From: the human T2T-CHM13v2.0 reference genome, Homo sapiens
Length of the DNA: 64,000 bases
Assembly: GCF_009914755.1 (NCBI RefSeq)
Contig: NC_060940.1
Direction: 5' to 3' (one strand)
The notes beneath the pieces were generated by a model. The model was not told the origin of the DNA. It worked only from the letters and a program-made list of their open reading frames with translations, and made no database searches. The translations under genes and the position numbers were made by a program. Positions 8,628-14,422 of this stretch are shown one piece after another (the first letter of the stretch is position 1; every line of letters starts with the position of its first letter).

Positions 8628-11600
8628 ATGGCCTTCCTGGTGGCTGGGACCCTGCGGCTGGCCACGCAGATGGCAGACACTCGAGACAGCCTGGGGAGAA
8701 AGGTAGCAGGAGGCACCGCCTAGCCCAGCTGCTCCTGCCTCCCTGCTGAGCCCCAGCCCAGCCCAGCCCAGCCCAGCTCTGGCCTTGCCTCCCCAGGGGA
8801 AGTATGACGTCCAGGGTCCAAGGGCAGCCCTGATGCTCAGCAGCCCTGGGGTGGCGGCCGCTGTAGTCACTGCCCTGGAGGACGTGTTCCAGGCCCTGGG
8901 CTTTGAGAGCTGCGAGAGGAGGGAGGTCCCGGTCCAGGTGAGCCTCTGCCTCTTACATCCACCCTCAGGCCCAGCACCGACCCCTTCCCCACTCTCCCCT
9001 GACCCAGAATCTCCTCCCCACCCAAAACCTCCCCGGACTCAGGTCGGTCTCACTCTTGCCCCTAGGGCTTCCTCGAGGAACTGGCTTGGTTCCAGGAGCA
9101 GCTGGATGCCCACGGGCGCCCTGTGGGGTGTGCCTTAGTGGCCTTGATGCCCCCAGAGGGCAGCTGAGGCAGCCACAGCAGCTGGTCCGGGAGCTGAGCG
9201 GCTGCCGGGCCCTGCGGGGCTGCCCCAGAGTCTTCCTGCTGCTCTCAAGTGGTCCTGGGTGTGAGTGAGCTGGGTCAGGATCCAGGAGCTGGCCAGGGAC
9301 CCAGGGGCAGAGCCTCGGGCCTCACTGCAGGCCAACATGCTGCTTCTCTACCCAGCCTCCCTGGAGCCCGGAGCCTTCCTTGCTGGCCTGAGAGAGCTGT
9401 GTGGCCGCTCTCCTCACTGGTCCCTGGTGCAGCTGCTGACGGAGGTGGGGACGCTGGAGGGGGAGGCCCAGGGAAGCGGGGCTGGTCCTGCTGTCTCCGC
9501 TGGTTCTGCTGTGCCCCCCTAAGCCAGTTACAGTTAGATTCATTCACTTGTATCCTCCCTCCGATTCATTCTACAAACCTCCATTATTGTCTACAGAAGT
9601 GGTCTCAGCCCCTCACCCTCAACTCGGGACCCCTGACAACCCACTCAGGATCCCCGACACTCGACTCCTCCCAACTCCATGCCTTGGCCCAAGCAGTTCC
9701 CTCTGCCTGCTATGCCTTCCTGTTGTCCCGGGAGCCCTGCACAGTCCTCTGCAGGCTGCCAGCGATGCCCTTCCTTGCATCCACGCTTGCACTTCAGGCT
9801 GCCCCTTTCTACACCAAGCAGTGGCTGTCCGCCCTGTTAGATCGCAGGACCCTGGAGGCTGGGACTGGGAATGCTTCAAGTCTGGTCTCCAAGGCTGAAG
9901 GTCTCACTGTGTAGTTGGGTGGCCCCTGGGCAGCCCTGGGGATGAGGGGGCCCCAGCTCTCCTCCACAGATCGCCCAGCAGGGTAGTGCCCACCCCGTGA
10001 GTCTTCCCGACAGGCCCAGCCCCGCTCTAGGGAACATCCCCACCTCTCTGCGCACTGATCCCGGGGCAGGGGTTAATGGTGTGGCCACTGTCCACTCGAG
10101 GCCATCCATGCCCAGGGAAGTCCATAACCTTGAGCCTGAACTGGAGCCTGGGCCCTGCTTGAGGCCATCCTGCCTGTCTGTCCTTTGCTGGCCTCCTCCT
10201 GTCTGCATTCTGGCAGGTGACCCTGAAGAGACTATAGAAGCCACAAGCCTGGCTGAGTCTTTTCTCGGCCCCATCCCCAGCTCTTCCGCAGGGTGGCTGA
10301 AGAGTCCGCAGGGGGCACCTGCTGCCCCGTCCTTCGGAGCTCCTTGAGGGGGGCACTGTGCCTGGGAGGCGTGGAGCCCTGGAGGCCTGAGGTGAGGGGG
10401 GCAGGGCAGGGATCCAATCACATGGCCACAGTTTCCAGTGGGACAGAAGCTTAGGGGGGGCCCCGGCCGGGGAGGCCAGGAGCTGGAGTCCTCTCAGGCC
10501 ACTTTAGATGTGTCTTAACCCTCTCTGCAGCCGGCCCCCGGTCCCAGCACACAGTATGACCTGTCCAAGGCCAGGGCTGCCCTCCTCCTGGCTGTGATCC
10601 AAGGCCGGCCTGGGGCCCAGCATGACGTGGAGGCGCTGGGGGGCCTGTGCTGGGCCCTGGGCTTTGAGACCACCGTGAGAACGGACCCTACAGCCCAGGT
10701 GAGGGGAAGCCGAGAACTTCCACTGGTGCTCTGAAGGAAGACCACCCCTCCCTAGAAACCTGGGGCCTCTCTCCATCACTGGCAGGAAGTGCACCACAAG
10801 TCTAACCTCTGTGCTCCCTGTTGCCTGCATCTGGCCCGTCACTTCCCTGCCTCTGGAAGCCTGGTCTCCAGGGTCCCCGAGGCCTTCCTCACTGGCTGGT
10901 TCTCTGGCCCCCCCCGCCCCCTCCCCAGCTCAAAGCTTTAGCTCCAAGTCTTGGTTTCCCTCTTGGCTCCCAGCAGCCCACTCCGCTCTCCTCACACCTC
11001 TCAACTTCTTGGTGCGGCTTCCCCACGAGGGCAGGAGGAGAACTGGCTCCAGGAAGCTGGGTCTCTATGTCACCTCTAAAGAGGCCATGCCAAGGCCTTG
11101 CAGGAGGGAGTTAGAAAAGGGCTTCTGGCCGGGTGCAGTGGCTCACGCCTGTAATCCCAACACTTTAGGAGGCTGAGACGGGTGGATCACTTGAGATTAG
11201 GAGTTTGAGACCAGCCTGACTACCATGGTGAAACCTCGTCTCTACTATATAGACAAAATTAGTAGGGCATGGTGGTGCGTGCCTGTAATCCCAGCTACTT
11301 GGGAGGCTGAGGCAGGAGAATGGCTTGAACCCAGGAGGCCGAGGTTGCAGTGAGCTGAGATTGTGCCACTGCACTCCAGCCTGGGCGACAGAGCAAGACT
11401 CTGTCTCAAAAAACAAAAACAGGCCGGGCACAGTGGCTCACGCCTGTAATCCCAGCACTTTGGGAGGCCGAGACAAGCGGATCACGACGTCAGGAGATCG
11501 AGACCATTCTGGCTAACACAGCGAAACCTCATCTCTACTAAAAATATAAAAAATTAGCCGGGTGTGGTGGCATGTACCTGTATTCCCAGCTACTCAGGAG

Positions 11601-14422
11601 GCTGAGGCAGGAGAATCGCTTGAACCCAGGAGGCAGAGATAGCAGTGAGCCGAGATCGCGCCACTGCACTCCAGCCTGGGTGACAGAGCAAGACTCCTTC
11701 CCAAAAAAAAAAAAAAAAAAAAAGAGGGCTTCCTCCCTGGACCTGTGAGTGGCAGGCGGTGGGAGGCCAGGTGGGGCAGGGTCTGGGAAACCTTGTCAGC
11801 CTCACAGAGGGCAGCCAGTGGCTGGGGAGGCGGTGGCTTTGGCCCAGGCCTCAACATTGTTCCCACCCCAGGCTTTCCAGGAGGAGCTGGCCCAGTTCCG
11901 GGAGCAACTGGACACCTGCAGGGGCCCTGTGAGCTGTGCCCTTGTGGCCCTGATGGCCCATGGGGGACCACGGGGTCAGCTGCTGGGGGCTGACGGGCAA
12001 GAGGTGCAGCCCGAGGCACTCATGCAGGAGCTGAGCCGCTGCCAGGTGCTGCAGGGCCGCCCCAAGATCTTCCTGTTGCAGGCCTGCCGTGGGGGTGAGC
12101 GGCCCGGCCTCCTACTGCCCTCACTTTCCTCGGCCAAGCTTCAGCCCCCGGGACTCACTGTCTACCTTCTCCAGGGAGCCCGGGTACCTGCCCTTCCCTG
12201 CCCCCTCTCCTGTCCTCTCCTAGAGGTCAAGTCCATGACCTTGAACCCTTAACTCTCAACACCTGTCATTCAGCGCTCTGAATGTCTCCAGTCTGGCAAG
12301 CCTGCCCTGGAGCTCTGGAGTTGGGTTCTCACCTTGACCCCACATTCACACTAGACCCCTGAGCACCCCCAGGTATCCCCGGAGTGAGACTATCTGCCTC
12401 TCCCCACCCTCTTCAGGAAACAGGGATGCTGGTGTGGGGCCCACAGCTCTCCCCTGGTACTGGAGCTGGCTGCGGGCACCTCCATCTGTCCCCTCCCATG
12501 CAGATGTCCTGCAGATCTACGCTGAGGCCCAAGGTGGGTTCTGCCTTCCTTCCAGGGCCTGGGCTTGGGCAGGGCTGGTTGTGGGGACCGTCCAGAGAGC
12601 ATCTCCAGGGCTCTAAGCTGGGGTATGGCTGCCACCTGCATCCTCTGTTTGCCAAGACAATGGGAAGAAAAAAAATCTTCCTAAACCGCAAGGGCCTTTG
12701 GGAAGTGGGAGCTTCTTCCCCTGTTGGAGCCTGGCAAGAACCCTGGAGTCGGTAAGGTCAAATAGCTTTTCTGAGGTCACAGCTGTTAAGTGGCTGGGCC
12801 GAGCTTTGAACTTCCGTCTGTCATTCCTGCCCTGCACTCTTTCCACCTCCCTGGGCTGCCCTTAAGCCACAGATGGGGAGCTCCCGGGGCTGATGGAGTT
12901 CCACGATGTTGATCACTGGAATTGATTCCTCTTGCAGGCAGCTCCTGCAGGGGCACCCCTCCAGGGAGCTCTGACCAAGCAGACATCCTGACGGTCTACT
13001 CAGCCGCAGAGGGTAAGGAGATGGGTCATCGGGAGCCTGTGGTTACACAGGGCCCAGCTTCCTGGCCTAAGATCTGGAGTAGCCTTAGGGGCAGCTAGGG
13101 CTTAGGGTTGGGGCACAGAGATGCCAGCCCAGCTGTGGTCCAGCCATGTTCCCTACATGGGTTAGGATGTGTAGTAACAGCAGTGATGGTGAGTGCTGTG
13201 AGGCGCAGCTGTGCCAACCACTGTGTGTGCAGGTTTCCTCTAGGCTGTGAGTTCCACGAGGCCAGGGTAGACCTGCCTGCCCCAAGGCCCTGCTCAGTGT
13301 CTGGCACATAGTAGGTGCACAGTAAATGTTTGTTCAGTAGTGAATCTCTCCATAGGCTCACCTCTGCAAATACCTAGCAACAACTTGTTCCAGATGCAAG
13401 AAGTCCCTGCTCCCTGCCCTGTTCTCTTGCCTGATTCCTGGGTCCTGCCTCCTTGTACCCCACTTTCCACCAACAATAGGACCCCTGGGATTGGAAGGCA
13501 GAGGGTTGGGGCCTTGGTCTGATGCTCTGGCCCTGATCCCCTGACCTAGGCTATGTGGCCTATCGCGATGACAAGGGCTCAGACTTTATCCAGACACTGG
13601 TGGAGGTCCTCAGAGCCAACCCCGGGAGAGACCTTCTGGAGCTGCTGACTGAGGTGTGTTGGGGGGTTCCAGGGTGACAAGTGGCAAGGAGCTGGGTTTG
13701 CCCTTCTCCCCAGCCCTGGTATTCTGATCATCTCCTATGAACTCCATTGGCGAAGGAGGGATCCTCTGCCCTCAATACTACAAGATAACCAAACGCAGGA
13801 TGGCCGACGCTGCACAGATGCCATCCACTGCAGTTCTTAGTCACACGTACTGCAGTCGGGTGGGGAGGAGGACACTGCATGTCATGCGGGGCCACCTGGG
13901 CTTGTGCTCAGAGCAGGGTGAACCTGCAGGGCCAGTGGGAAGCTGGCTTTGTAGTGACAAGAGAGTGAGATGCCCCCTGGTTCCCACGGGCAGATGTGGT
14001 TGGTTGGTTTGAATATTTCCAAGGCCTGTCAGGGGGCTGAAGTCCATTAGGGTGACGACCAGGTGGGGTGCAGCTGGTCTGCTGAGAGGGGACCTAGGGG
14101 GTGGGAGCCTGTCCTGCTGGGTGGGGACATGTCTGGCCAGAGCAGAGGAATTCACCGTTAGGCCTCTGGAGCTCTGCGAGCCTCAAAGATGTCCAGGCAG
14201 TCCTTGAAATTTTAGGCCTTGCAATGTACCAAGCCAGGGGCTCTCCCCTGGGGCAGGCTGAGCCCCGGAGGGCTGTAACCCCGGGCGCAGGCTGGGTGTG
14301 GTCCTCAGGTCAACAGGCGGGTGTGTGAGCAGGAGGTGCTGGGCCCCGACTGCGATGAACTCCGCAAGGCCTGCCTGGAGATCCGCAGCTCGCTCCGGCG
14401 CCGGCTCTGCCTCCAGGCCTGA
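8628..14422 (+). pseudogene. CASP16P: Caspase-16 unitary pseudogene, 11 exons, single frameshift
   Basis: Exons 8628-8702, 8797-8937, 9066-9260, 9356-9444, 10281-10391, 10531-10698, 11872-12094, 12417-12533, 12938-13012, 13550-13653, 14309-14422, all GT-AG. Catalytic ALMAHG (His 11959-61) and IFLLQACRG (Cys 12085-87). One base is missing at ~9150-54, giving TGA at 9165-67; adding it back yields a 470-aa ORF. Exon 1 is the least certain. Confidence 0.92.

What the first reader, a model, noticed from the sequence alone, without database searches (positions are those of the whole stretch)
8797..14422. CASP16 is a tandem pseudo-caspase + active-caspase gene built by intragenic domain duplication
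Seen: exons 2-5 parallel exons 6/7/10/11 in sequence and phase. KYDVQGPRAAL..ALGFES vs QYDLSKARAAL..ALGFET; FLEELAWFQEQLD..PVGCALVALM vs [29 protein letters not shown] vs LELLTE; RSSLRGALCL vs RSSLRRRLCL. The N-terminal copy lacks the catalytic His (LM.PRG vs LMAHG), the Cys (LLSSGP vs LQACRG) and the exon-8/9 equivalent. The C-terminal copy keeps His, Cys and both Asp-pocket arginines (GRPG, AYRD). Established: caspases activate by dimerisation, and cFLIP-L is a pseudo-caspase partner of caspase-8. Inference: the protein could be a single-chain pre-assembled heterodimer. I recall the duplication itself being reported; the mechanism is my hypothesis.
Basis: partly seen in the sequence, partly recalled or inferred. 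Interest (0 to 1): 0.8.

Follow-up and report, generated by a model that had tools for sequence, protein, structure and literature searches.

The report
Caspase-16 pseudogene with duplicated caspase domain
This is the broken human copy of caspase-16, a mammalian protease gene whose front half is a dead duplicate of its own catalytic back half; the layout and the idea that the two halves pair inside one chain were both published in 2025, so the finding is right but not new.

Summary
Window 8628-14422 (+) is CASP16P. Exons 2-5 are paralogous to exons 6/7/10/11: all 6 cognate exon pairs beat 2000 of 2000 shuffles, and 5 non-cognate controls did not. Profiles of the two halves from 28 orthologues align at E 7e-38. 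The C-terminal copy keeps His290, Cys332 and both S1 arginines in 28 of 28 orthologues; the N-terminal copy lacks them. The human gene has one lesion, a 1-nt deletion in exon 3.

None of this is new. Eckhart et al. 2025 (PMC12198278) report the duplication, the human frameshift, a dimer-like structure model and the FLIP(L)/caspase-8 analogy.

- A decayed, in-frame relic of the linker/strand-5 exon lies in intron 3.
- Marsupial N-domains still keep the histidine loop.
- Coral caspase-X is an overlooked convergent precedent with functional data, in which the dead domain restrains activity.
- A 2021 paper claims activity for human CASP16P.

The parts
8628..8702 (+). Exon 1 coding part: ATG plus 25 codons (leader), GT donor at 8703.
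   Evidence: tblastn with chimp residues 1-25, 96% identity.
8797..8937 (+). Exon 2: start of the N-terminal dead caspase-like domain, paralogue of exon 6. Lacks the S1 arginine.
   Evidence: (0/2000 shuffles).
9066..9260 (+). Exon 3: paralogue of exon 7. Has no His loop and no QACRG. Carries the human frameshift.
   Evidence: (two reading frames within one exon).
9149..9167 (+). Site of the human 1-nt deletion (between 9149 and 9150, inferred from the chimp protein) and the resulting TGA stop at 9165-9167.
   Evidence: Eckhart 2025 Results.
9301..9357 (+). Relic of the linker/strand-5 exon (exon 9 homologue) at the 3' end of intron 3, in frame with exon 4. The AG at 9303-9304 would give an in-frame alternative acceptor.
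   Evidence: 0/3450 intronic windows; 0/741 windows; 12 acceptor-proximal controls lower.
9356..9444 (+). Exon 4: paralogue of exon 10 without the YVAYR segment.
10281..10391 (+). Exon 5: paralogue of exon 11 with the stop codon lost. Encodes the beta-6-like SSLRGALCL strand and reads on into exon 6.
10531..10698 (+). Exon 6: interdomain linker and start of the catalytic domain (Arg230 at 10606-08).
11872..12094 (+). Exon 7: large-subunit core with His290 (11959-61) and QACRG Cys332 (12085-87). The only in-frame ATG for the catalytic frame is at 11953.
   Evidence: PF00656, E 4.2e-8, above cut-off.
12417..12533 (+). Exon 8: first copy of the intersubunit-linker exon.
   Evidence: 8 vs 9: 0/2000 shuffles.
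12938..13012 (+). Exon 9: second copy of the linker exon. It ends in the strand-5-like ADILTVYSAAEG.
13550..13653 (+). Exon 10: small subunit with Arg404 (13564-66).
   Evidence: PF00656, E 0.0031.
14309..14422 (+). Exon 11 coding part: end of the small subunit (beta-6 RSSLRRRLCL) and the TGA stop.

Best explanation
Window 8628-14422 is CASP16P, the human unitary pseudogene of mammalian caspase-16.

The intact gene (for example chimpanzee, 470 aa) encodes three parts: a 25-aa leader; an N-terminal caspase-like domain of about 180 aa that cannot be catalytic (exons 2-5); and a C-terminal caspase domain with a complete active site (exons 6-11).

The N domain arose by internal tandem duplication of the caspase-domain exons in the caspase-16 lineage, before marsupials and placentals split. 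It then decayed in steps. The upstream copy lost its stop codon, the catalytic Cys, both S1 arginines and the linker/strand-5/L3 segment. Placentals later lost the His loop as well. The linker exon of the downstream copy was duplicated again (exons 8 and 9).

Shown here: the paralogy, the residue states, the conservation and the human lesion.

Inferred: in species with an intact gene the dead domain packs against the live one through its beta-6-like strand, as two caspase monomers do. That would give a one-chain pseudo-dimer with a single active site. Whether this pairing switches the enzyme on (as FLIP(L) does for caspase-8) or holds it back (as reported for coral caspase-X) is open.

In humans a 1-nt deletion in exon 3 stops translation after 105 residues, so no such protein is made from the native start.
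For: - **Orthology.** Exon 7 is 99% identical to chimpanzee CASP16. 180 of 200 candidates matched at E<=0.001, and the listed names are mammalian caspase-16/'caspase-14-like'. The gene sits beside ZNF213 (hub annotation; Eckhart 2025).
- **Paralogy.**. hhalign of N (26-205) against C (206-470) profiles from 28 of 30 aligned orthologues gave probability 99.95, E 7e-38, 44% identity over 171 columns (two aberrant isoforms were dropped). N against its own C averages 45% identity and score 276, against 39% and score 171 for N against caspase-14.
- **N domain is caspase-derived.** A profile of 12 N domains hits solved caspase-2 p18 at E 7e-5, and the best 60 of 98 hits are all caspases.
- **Active site.** R230, H290, Q330, C332, R333 and R404 are kept in 28 of 28 C domains. 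The Cys-equivalent is absent in 28 of 28 N domains. The His loop is absent in 25 of 25 placentals.
- **Timing.** The N|C split has SH-aLRT 100, with marsupials and placentals on both sides (quick tree). N+C form one group at 92/89, with caspase-14 sister at SH-aLRT 93 on the quick tree.
- **Constraint on N.** Placental pairwise identity is 0.715, against 0.80-0.83 for the catalytic parts. The most conserved 9-mer is SSLRGALCL at 0.952.
- **Human lesion.** There is one frame change in exon 3, no other stop in 470 codons, and 9 amino-acid differences from chimp. The possible products are 105 aa from the native ATG and 183 aa from the exon 7 ATG.
- **Published support.** A structure model and the FLIP(L) analogy are in Eckhart 2025.
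Against:
- The N domain is not a full caspase domain. Pfam scores it below cut-off (15.5 bits against 21.4). The koala N domain gives no Pfam hit. Single-sequence phmmer against PDB finds nothing at E<=10.
- By alignment the N domain lacks the strand-5/L3 segment, so its sheet and its interface may differ from FLIP(L)'s.
- The AU test does not reject a tree with the N domain outside caspase-16 C plus caspase-14 (delta lnL 4.2, p 0.27).
- According to the paper, echidna caspase-16 has no such prodomain, so the protease can exist without it.
- The coral precedent points to restraint rather than activation.
- Weigand et al. 2021 report that an overexpressed HA-tagged human CASP16P ORF is translated and lowers RII-beta. 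This conflicts with a purely dead gene.
Confidence: 0.85

Rival explanations
1. The dead domain is a built-in brake rather than an activating partner. It occupies the dimer face of the live domain and keeps it off until it is cleaved away or displaced. This is what was reported for coral caspase-X.
For: Moya et al. 2016 (passages) report three things for caspase-X. It has an inactive domain followed by an active caspase domain in one chain. It was modelled on the cFLIP/procaspase-8 structure with a beta-6/beta-6 interface. The N-truncated form killed HeLa cells more effectively than the full-length form. The same architecture was recovered here in coral proteins.
Against: Caspase-X is not related by descent to the caspase-16 N domain: coral N against caspase-16 N scores 40, while coral N against coral C scores 299. 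Its dead domain keeps the linker and strand 5, which caspase-16's lacks. There are no data for caspase-16 itself. No conserved Asp was seen in the interdomain linker of placentals (consensus), so removal by a caspase cut is not obvious.
Confidence: 0.3
2. The two domains do not pair within a chain. N pairs with N, and C with C, of a second molecule, or the N domain recruits another caspase-fold protein. On this view the 'prodomain' is an oligomerisation or adaptor module.
For: Eckhart 2025 name this as an alternative (Discussion). The interdomain linker is short (about 15 residues) and is the least conserved segment (0.695). The N domain lacks strand 5, so a canonical pseudo-dimer is not assured.
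Against: The published AlphaFold-derived macaque model shows the two domains in contact (as described; not seen by me). Tethering strongly favours intrachain contact. No partner is known.
Confidence: 0.15
3. Origin by fusion of two neighbouring caspase-14-like genes (read-through after stop-codon loss) rather than duplication of exons inside one gene. The N domain could then predate the caspase-14/caspase-16 split.
For: The AU test does not reject the N domain lying outside caspase-16 C plus caspase-14 (p 0.27). Exon 5 is an exon 11 homologue that lost its stop. One turtle gene model (P0303, 589 aa) carries two complete, active-looking caspase-14-like domains in tandem.
Against: The best tree groups N with caspase-16 C (92/89; 91% of 200 bootstrap trees). 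N is more similar to its own C than to caspase-14. The turtle model may be a read-through artefact of annotation. The two scenarios differ little in outcome.
Confidence: 0.15
4. Human CASP16P is not dead: a product of the catalytic half is made and cleaves PKA RII-beta in adrenocortical cells.
For: Weigand et al. 2021, Sci Adv (passages) report the following. CASP16P mRNA is raised in PRKACA-mutant adenomas. A synthetic HA-tagged 'CASP16P ORF' is translated in NCI-H295R cells. It lowers endogenous RII-beta.
Against: From the native ATG the frame ends after 105 aa. The only in-frame ATG for the catalytic frame is Met288, which gives 183 aa without strands 1-3 of the large subunit (Eckhart 2025). 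The construct had an artificial start and was overexpressed. Which ORF was synthesised is not stated in the passages I saw. No endogenous protein was shown there.
Confidence: 0.08

Closest known systems
Caspase-16 / CASP16P as described by Eckhart, Sachslehner, Steinbinder & Fischer 2025 (J Mol Evol 93:395, PMC12198278) and their review (PMC12292325)
   Same: It is the same gene. The paper reports: exons 2-3 homologous to exons 6-7 and exons 4-5 to exons 10-11; the dyad lost in the prodomain; exons 8/9 as a further duplication; the 1-nt deletion in human exon 3; the 105-aa and 183-aa human ORFs; a model resembling a caspase-14 dimer; and the FLIP(L)/caspase-8 comparison.
   Different: Only details differ.
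[quoted passage not shown] I find a genomic relic of it in intron 3.
- The review dates the linker-exon duplication to placentals, but 3 of 3 marsupial sequences carry both copies.
- The text passages I read do not mention the marsupial N-domain His.
- They say no other caspase has a caspase-like prodomain, and cite neither coral caspase-X nor Weigand 2021 (0 occurrences).
Coral caspase-X (Acropora millepora; Moya et al. 2016, BMC Genomics 17:62, PMC4715348)
   Same: One chain with an N-terminal caspase domain lacking His and Cys, followed by an active caspase domain. It was modelled as an intrachain cFLIP/caspase-8-like pair through beta-6. The architecture was recovered independently here: P0156 and its named Pocillopora/Acropora relatives have two PF00656 stretches, with His/Cys motifs only in the second.
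   Different: Independent origin: each dead domain is closest to its own live domain. The coral proteins are longer (610-790 aa). Their dead domain keeps linker and strand 5. Functional data exist for the coral protein only.
cFLIP(L)/procaspase-8 heterodimer (PDB 3H11/3H13)
   Same: A catalytically dead caspase-fold partner pairs with a live caspase domain to give an enzyme with one active site (FLIP(L) review passages). 3h11_B is among the solved relatives of the C domain.
   Different: These are two separate polypeptides brought together by DEDs at a signalling platform. FLIP(L) is a caspase-8 paralogue with a complete fold. Caspase-16 has no DED, and its dead domain is truncated.
Caspase-14 (closest paralogue)
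   Same: It is sister group to the caspase-16 domains in my trees. It is 45-54% identical to the C domain.
   Different: Single domain, no prodomain, one linker exon (Eckhart 2025 Discussion).
Separase (pseudo-protease domain plus caspase-like protease domain in one chain)
   Same: A dead and a live caspase-fold domain packed together in one polypeptide. This is recalled knowledge; I saw only a search listing.
   Different: A very distant clan CD member, a giant protein, with unrelated regulation by securin. Not compared here.

Membership tests
Caspase (Peptidase_C14, PF00656): C-terminal copy | Match to the family profile above the curated cut-off | tested here: met
   Human exon 7 alone: 33.6 bits against 21.4. 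Eight of 8 full-length orthologues: 99.6-138 bits, with the best stretch in the C half.
Caspase (Peptidase_C14, PF00656): C-terminal copy | His-Cys dyad within SHG/QACRG-type motifs | tested here: met
   LMAHG and LLQACRG are in the window. H290 and C332 are in 28 of 28 orthologues.
Caspase (Peptidase_C14, PF00656): C-terminal copy | S1 pocket residues for Asp (two Arg and a Gln; their roles are recalled) | tested here: met
   R230, Q330 and R404 are in 28 of 28. R230 and R404 align with Arg residues of solved caspase-2 (alignment).
Caspase (Peptidase_C14, PF00656): C-terminal copy | Translatable from the gene's own start in this genome | tested here: not met
   The frameshift in exon 3 gives a stop at 9165-9167 and a 105-aa product.
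Pseudo-caspase domain: N-terminal copy | Homology to a caspase domain | tested here: met
   hhalign E 7e-38 against the gene's own C domain. An N-domain profile hits caspase-2 p18 at E 7e-5. Against this: the Pfam match is below cut-off (15.5 bits), and single-sequence search against PDB finds nothing.
Pseudo-caspase domain: N-terminal copy | Catalytic residues replaced | tested here: met
   The Cys-equivalent is absent in 28 of 28. The His loop is absent in 25 of 25 placentals but present in 3 of 3 marsupials.
Pseudo-caspase domain: N-terminal copy | Caspase-like alpha/beta/alpha fold | not testable with these tools
The only source is the published AlphaFold-derived macaque model as described in Eckhart 2025.
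FLIP(L)-like partner of a live caspase domain | Pairs with the live domain through the beta-6 dimer face | not testable with these tools
The indirect evidence is that the beta-6-like 9-mer is the most conserved part of the N domain.
FLIP(L)-like partner of a live caspase domain | Separate DED-containing polypeptide, paralogue of caspase-8 | tested here: not met
   The dead domain is in the same chain, and no family other than PF00656 was found in 8 orthologues above noise. The N domain groups with caspase-16 C and caspase-14.
Coral caspase-X family | Common descent of the tandem arrangement | tested here: not met
   Coral N against caspase-16 N scores 40 (26% over 102). Coral N against coral C scores 299, and caspase-16 N against C scores 232.
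CASP16 orthologue | Best match to caspase-16 of other mammals, the same 11-exon layout, and ZNF213 upstream | tested here: met
   (all 11 exons located with the chimp protein); hub annotation for ZNF213; synteny criterion in Eckhart 2025 and Sakamaki & Satou 2009.

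The most novel reading that the evidence does not exclude
The main isoform's dead domain lacks the central strand 5, but the coding relic of that strand survives in frame at the end of intron 3 (9301-9357). It is about as conserved between primates and ruminants as the domain itself: 11 of 15 (human against Bos mutus) and 12 of 19 (Saimiri against Bos mutus). 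It is read through in predicted isoforms of squirrel monkey, yak and sheep, and in human or chimp it could be included through an in-frame AG at 9303-9304.

Mammals with an intact gene might therefore switch by splicing between a five-stranded and a six-stranded pseudo-caspase partner, and so tune the single active site of caspase-16.
Probability: 0.06. Interest if true: 0.45.

Novelty: already known. Interest (0 to 1): 0.2.

Why it matters
Caspases normally need a second molecule to become active. A caspase that carries its own dead partner in the same chain would be a natural test of how much dimerisation alone contributes. It would also be a second, independent invention of the architecture seen in coral caspase-X.

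That question is real but already posed in print, and humans and mice cannot answer it because both have lost the gene.

For this scan the value is confirmatory. The literature already holds both the observation and the hypothesis. The only new points are small: the intron-3 relic, the stepwise decay seen in marsupials, and two links missing from the literature (coral caspase-X; the 2021 claim of activity for human CASP16P).

Tried and rejected
- **Structure of the chimpanzee protein with the 30-sequence alignment.** Structure prediction answered 'being made ready'. Each retry came after at least twenty other calls, as the tool instructed. No model, no fold search.
- **Pfam on single N-copy exon peptides.** No caspase hit for any of the 5 pieces.
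- **Koala N domain against Pfam.** Nothing at E<=10.
- **Chimp N domain by phmmer against PDB sequences.** 0 hits. Only the 12-sequence profile worked.
- **ESM Atlas on the N domain.** It returned only the protein's own family clusters and holds no structure. Uninformative.
- **Careful tree of 56 domains.** Did not finish in 300 s, so the quick tree is reported.
- **AU test of 'N outside caspase-16 C plus caspase-14'.** Not rejected (p 0.27), so the order of duplication and the caspase-14/16 split is favoured but not settled.
- **Turtle 'caspase-16-like' N-terminal regions.** No match to the N or C profile outside their single caspase domain.
- The human rows used a wrong reading frame and are void; one search replaces them. 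The ungapped relic identities are out of register for the ruminants and should be ignored.
- **Idea that coral P0156 was a non-mammalian vertebrate caspase-16.** Rejected: its named relatives are stony corals.

Full report
**What is in the window**

The finding covers CASP16P on the + strand. I read 8700-14700 and 7380-8800 and rebuilt the gene. They are:

| Exon | Window coordinates |
|---|---|
| 2 | 8797-8937 |
| 3 | 9066-9260 |
| 4 | 9356-9444 |
| 5 | 10281-10391 |
| 6 | 10531-10698 |
| 7 | 11872-12094 |
| 8 | 12417-12533 |
| 9 | 12938-13012 |
| 10 | 13550-13653 |
| 11 | 14309-14422 |

Exon lengths are 75, 141, 195, 89, 111, 168, 223, 117, 75, 104 and 114 nt. This gives exons 2-5 the same phases as exons 6, 7, 10 and 11 once the base missing from exon 3 is counted. 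Exons 6-11 form an open frame of 266 codons ending in TGA.

**Is the internal repeat real?**

Yes. Six cognate pairs (2/6, the two frames of 3 against 7, 4/10, 5/11 and 8/9) gave BLOSUM62 local scores with z of 6.6 to 16.5. None of the 2000 shuffles per pair reached them. Five non-cognate pairs were reached by 283 to 1360 of 2000 shuffles.

At DNA level exon 3 aligns with exon 7 at 65% over 214 nt (E 1e-18) and exon 2 with exon 6 at 65% over 153 nt (E 9e-9). The introns do not align, so the duplication is old.

The catalytic residues are in the C copy: His CAT at 11959-61, Cys TGC at 12085-87, Arg230 at 10606-08 and Arg404 at 13564-66.

**Orthologues**

The exon 7 peptide retrieved 180 proteins at E<=0.001 among 200 candidates. 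The top hit was chimpanzee 'uncharacterized protein CASP16' (470 aa, 99% identical). Many other mammals gave proteins of about 470 aa, mostly labelled caspase-14-like.

A tblastn of the chimp protein on the window found all 11 coding exons. Exon 3 is split between two frames (9066-9161 and 9119-9259) and every other exon lies in one frame.

Read through with X at the break, the human gene has 470 codons and no other stop. It has nine amino-acid differences from chimp. Among them are K127R, at a position that is K in all 29 other aligned sequences, V100M and R245W.

Comparison with the chimp protein places the missing base between 9149 and 9150. The frame then ends at TGA 9165-9167. From the native ATG the product is 105 aa. 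The only in-frame ATG for the catalytic frame is at 11953 (Met288) and gives 183 aa.

**The two domains across mammals**

I aligned 30 orthologues (A1). For counts I dropped two aberrant isoform models (P0010, P0011), leaving 28.

- Profiles of residues 26-205 and 206-470 align with probability 99.95, E 7e-38, and 44% identity over 171 columns.
- The C domain keeps R230, H290, Q330, C332, R333 and R404 in 28 of 28.
- R230 and R404 align with arginines of solved caspase-2. That these form the Asp pocket is recalled knowledge.
- In the N domain the Cys-equivalent is absent in 28 of 28.
- The His and a 10-residue loop are absent in 25 of 25 placentals but present in 3 of 3 marsupials.
- By the alignment, the N domain lacks everything between the strand-4 equivalent (KVFLLLSS) and the helix that begins EPGAFL. 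This is the linker, the strand-5-like segment and the YVAYR loop. The strand and loop names are recalled from caspase structures.

Pfam recognises only the C half in the 6 placentals scanned (one stretch each). In the 2 marsupials scanned it reports 2 and 3 stretches, whose positions I did not see. Alone, the chimp N domain scores 15.5 bits against a cut-off of 21.4, and the koala N domain scores nothing. The chimp N domain finds no solved structure by phmmer. A profile of 12 N domains does hit caspase-2 p18 at E 7e-5, and the best 60 of its 98 hits are all caspases.

The N domain is less conserved than the catalytic parts but clearly constrained. Mean placental pairwise identity is 0.715, against 0.797 (large subunit) and 0.828 (small subunit). 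Its most conserved 9-mer is SSLRGALCL (0.952), the counterpart of the C-terminal strand that forms the dimer face in caspases (the structural role is recalled).

**When and how it arose**

- In a quick tree of 28 N and 28 C domains the two sets are separated by a branch with SH-aLRT 100. Each set contains marsupials and placentals. N branches are roughly twice as long (the careful search did not finish).
- With 30 other caspase representatives, N plus C form one side of a branch (94).
- With named outgroups (mammalian caspase-14, turtle caspase-14/16-like, a pyrin-bearing caspase-15-like, fish), the careful tree gives N+C at UFBoot 92 / SH-aLRT 89, found in 91% of 200 bootstrap trees. The quick tree puts caspase-14 as sister at SH-aLRT 93.
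- An AU test does not reject a tree with the N domain outside caspase-16 C plus caspase-14 (delta lnL 4.2, p 0.27).
- N is more similar to its own C (45%, score 276) than to caspase-14 (39%, score 171).

I conclude that a duplication within the caspase-16 lineage before the marsupial-placental split is the best reading. The exact order relative to the caspase-14 split is not proven.

**What is already published**

Eckhart et al. 2025 (PMC12198278) report the following. I read the abstract, Results and Discussion, ran term searches, and read one part of the supplement.

- The homology of exons 2-3 with exons 6-7 and of exons 4-5 with exons 10-11.
- Loss of the dyad in the prodomain.
- Exons 8 and 9 as a further duplication.
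- The single-nucleotide deletion in human exon 3, with the stop at the sixth triplet after it.
- The 105-aa product and the residues-288-470 ORF.
- A structure model of macaque caspase-16 that resembles a caspase-14 homodimer.
- The suggestion that the tandem domains interact, giving one active site 'comparable to' caspase-8/FLIP(L), with intermolecular pairing as the alternative.

Their review (PMC12292325; passages only) asks whether the intramolecular interaction suffices for activity without intermolecular dimerisation. Searches for 'caspase-16' (39 papers) and 'CASP16P' (17 papers) turned up no experimental test of the mechanism.

*1. A relic of the linker exon.* The last 57 nt of intron 3, running into exon 4 (9301-9357), align with exon 9.

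- At protein level the in-frame translation scores 36 against exon 9 (8 of 18 identical). Among 3450 windows from the gene's other introns the mean is 16.2 (sd 3.9), and none reaches 36.
- At DNA level the score is 14, against a mean of 7.4 and a maximum of 11 in 741 windows. Twelve acceptor-proximal controls scored 6-9.
- An AG at 9303-9304 would give an in-frame acceptor 51 nt upstream of the used one.
- Four of the first 120 stored proteins read this intron through in frame: Saimiri P0003, Bos mutus P0099 and P0101, and Ovis P0107. In two of three self-alignments the relic pairs with the strand-5 segment of the C domain.
- The relic is 11 of 15 identical between human and Bos mutus, and 12 of 19 between Saimiri and Bos mutus.
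- Caveats: the relic overlaps the polypyrimidine tract, the isoforms are computer predictions, and I noticed it by eye before testing it.
- The supplement does not contain 'intron 3' or 'linker'. The review states that the prodomain has no linker homologue. That holds for the main protein but not for the DNA.

*2. Timing of the linker-exon duplication.* Marsupials carry both linker-exon copies (3 of 3 in A1), whereas the review dates that duplication to placentals.

*3. Coral caspase-X.* The profile search of 1.84 billion representatives gave 5126 hits at E<=0.001 and 63 at E<=1e-30. It surfaced non-mammalian proteins with two caspase domains.

- One of them, P0156, has a dead first domain and a live second domain. 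Of the 14 other hits at E<=1e-76, the 11 that carry a name are all stony corals (Pocillopora, Acropora).
- Three coral proteins scanned each show two PF00656 stretches. His/Cys motifs occur only in the second domain in 4 of 5 coral sequences examined; in the fifth my crude pattern did not find the Cys motif.
- This is caspase-X of Moya et al. 2016 (passages). It has an inactive plus an active domain in one chain. It was modelled on cFLIP/procaspase-8 with a beta-6/beta-6 interface. The N-truncated form was more lethal in HeLa cells.
- The arrangement is convergent. Coral N against caspase-16 N scores 40, while each N scores 232-299 against its own C.
- Neither caspase-16 paper mentions it.

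*4. A claim of activity for human CASP16P.* Weigand et al. 2021 (passages) report that an HA-tagged human CASP16P ORF is translated and lowers PKA RII-beta in adrenocortical cells. This sits badly with the ORF structure found here, and the caspase-16 papers do not cite it.

**How it most likely works**

Shown: a catalytically complete caspase domain preceded by a conserved, catalytically impossible, truncated copy of itself, with a short linker between them. In humans a frameshift prevents its synthesis.

Inferred: the dead copy packs on the live one through the beta-6-like strand to give a single-site enzyme. Published analogies point in opposite directions for its effect. FLIP(L) lowers the barrier to forming caspase-8's active site. 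The dead domain of caspase-X restrains killing. I put intrachain pairing at roughly 0.6-0.7, split evenly between activation and restraint, and intermolecular pairing at about 0.15. The missing strand 5 is a reason for caution about a canonical interface.

**What could not be done**

It rests on the published model, which I know only from the paper's text. No nucleotide data for other mammals were available, so no dN/dS could be computed and the relic could not be checked in other genomes. No population data were available for the human deletion.

**Verdict**

Its interpretation is correct on architecture, untested on mechanism, and already published on both counts. This is a known gene with a known peculiarity, and interest is low apart from the minor additions above.

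Noticed in passing
window 9301-9357: Decayed, in-frame relic of the linker/strand-5 exon (exon 9 homologue) at the 3' end of intron 3. There is an in-frame AG at 9303-9304. The intron is read through in predicted isoforms of Saimiri, Bos mutus and Ovis.
   Followed up: yes
P0016, P0020, P0019 (marsupial caspase-16), N domain: Marsupial N domains keep the 'AH' histidine and a 10-residue loop that all 25 placentals examined have deleted. The dead domain therefore decayed stepwise: Cys first, the His loop later.
   Followed up: partly
P0016, P0020, P0019, linker region: All three marsupial sequences carry both linker-exon copies (exon 8-like and exon 9-like). That duplication therefore predates the marsupial-placental split, whereas the 2025 review dates it to placentals.
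   Followed up: partly
P0156, P0267, P0270, P0272, P0276 (stony corals): Independent tandem dead-plus-live caspase proteins, i.e. published coral caspase-X. The caspase-16 papers I searched do not mention them, and they state that no other caspase has a caspase-like prodomain.
   Followed up: yes
P0303 (Chrysemys picta bellii, 589 aa): A turtle gene model with two complete caspase-14-like domains in tandem, both with His and QACRG. It is either a read-through annotation of neighbouring genes or a real double caspase.
   Followed up: partly
P0138, P0142, P0145, P0158, P0162, P0163, P0164, P0181, P0239, P0244 (unnamed representatives): Further proteins with two or three caspase domains. In some (P0145, P0163) the second domain lacks His or Cys, the reverse order to caspase-16. 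Organisms unknown.
   Followed up: partly
literature: PMC7895437: A 2021 Science Advances paper attributes PKA RII-beta degradation in adrenal cells to 'caspase 16' made from human CASP16P. This is hard to square with the 105-aa and 183-aa ORFs available in the human gene.
   Followed up: partly
window 9206-9208 (codon 127): Human has Arg where chimp and all 29 other aligned sequences have Lys (K127R, in the strand-4-like CPKVFLL). It is one of 9 human-chimp differences and consistent with relaxed constraint after the frameshift.
   Followed up: no
window 8752-8777: (CCCAG)5.2 perfect microsatellite in intron 1, just upstream of the exon 2 acceptor.
   Followed up: no
window 11127-11723: Two head-to-tail Alu-like copies (period 295, 82% match) ending in a 21-nt A run. 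They make up half of intron 6. The Alu identity is recalled from the sequence.
   Followed up: no
window 8904-8937: The RefSeq non-coding transcript NR_132322.1 in the hub table starts inside coding exon 2 and omits exon 1. The annotation therefore hides the N-terminal part of the ancestral reading frame.
   Followed up: no
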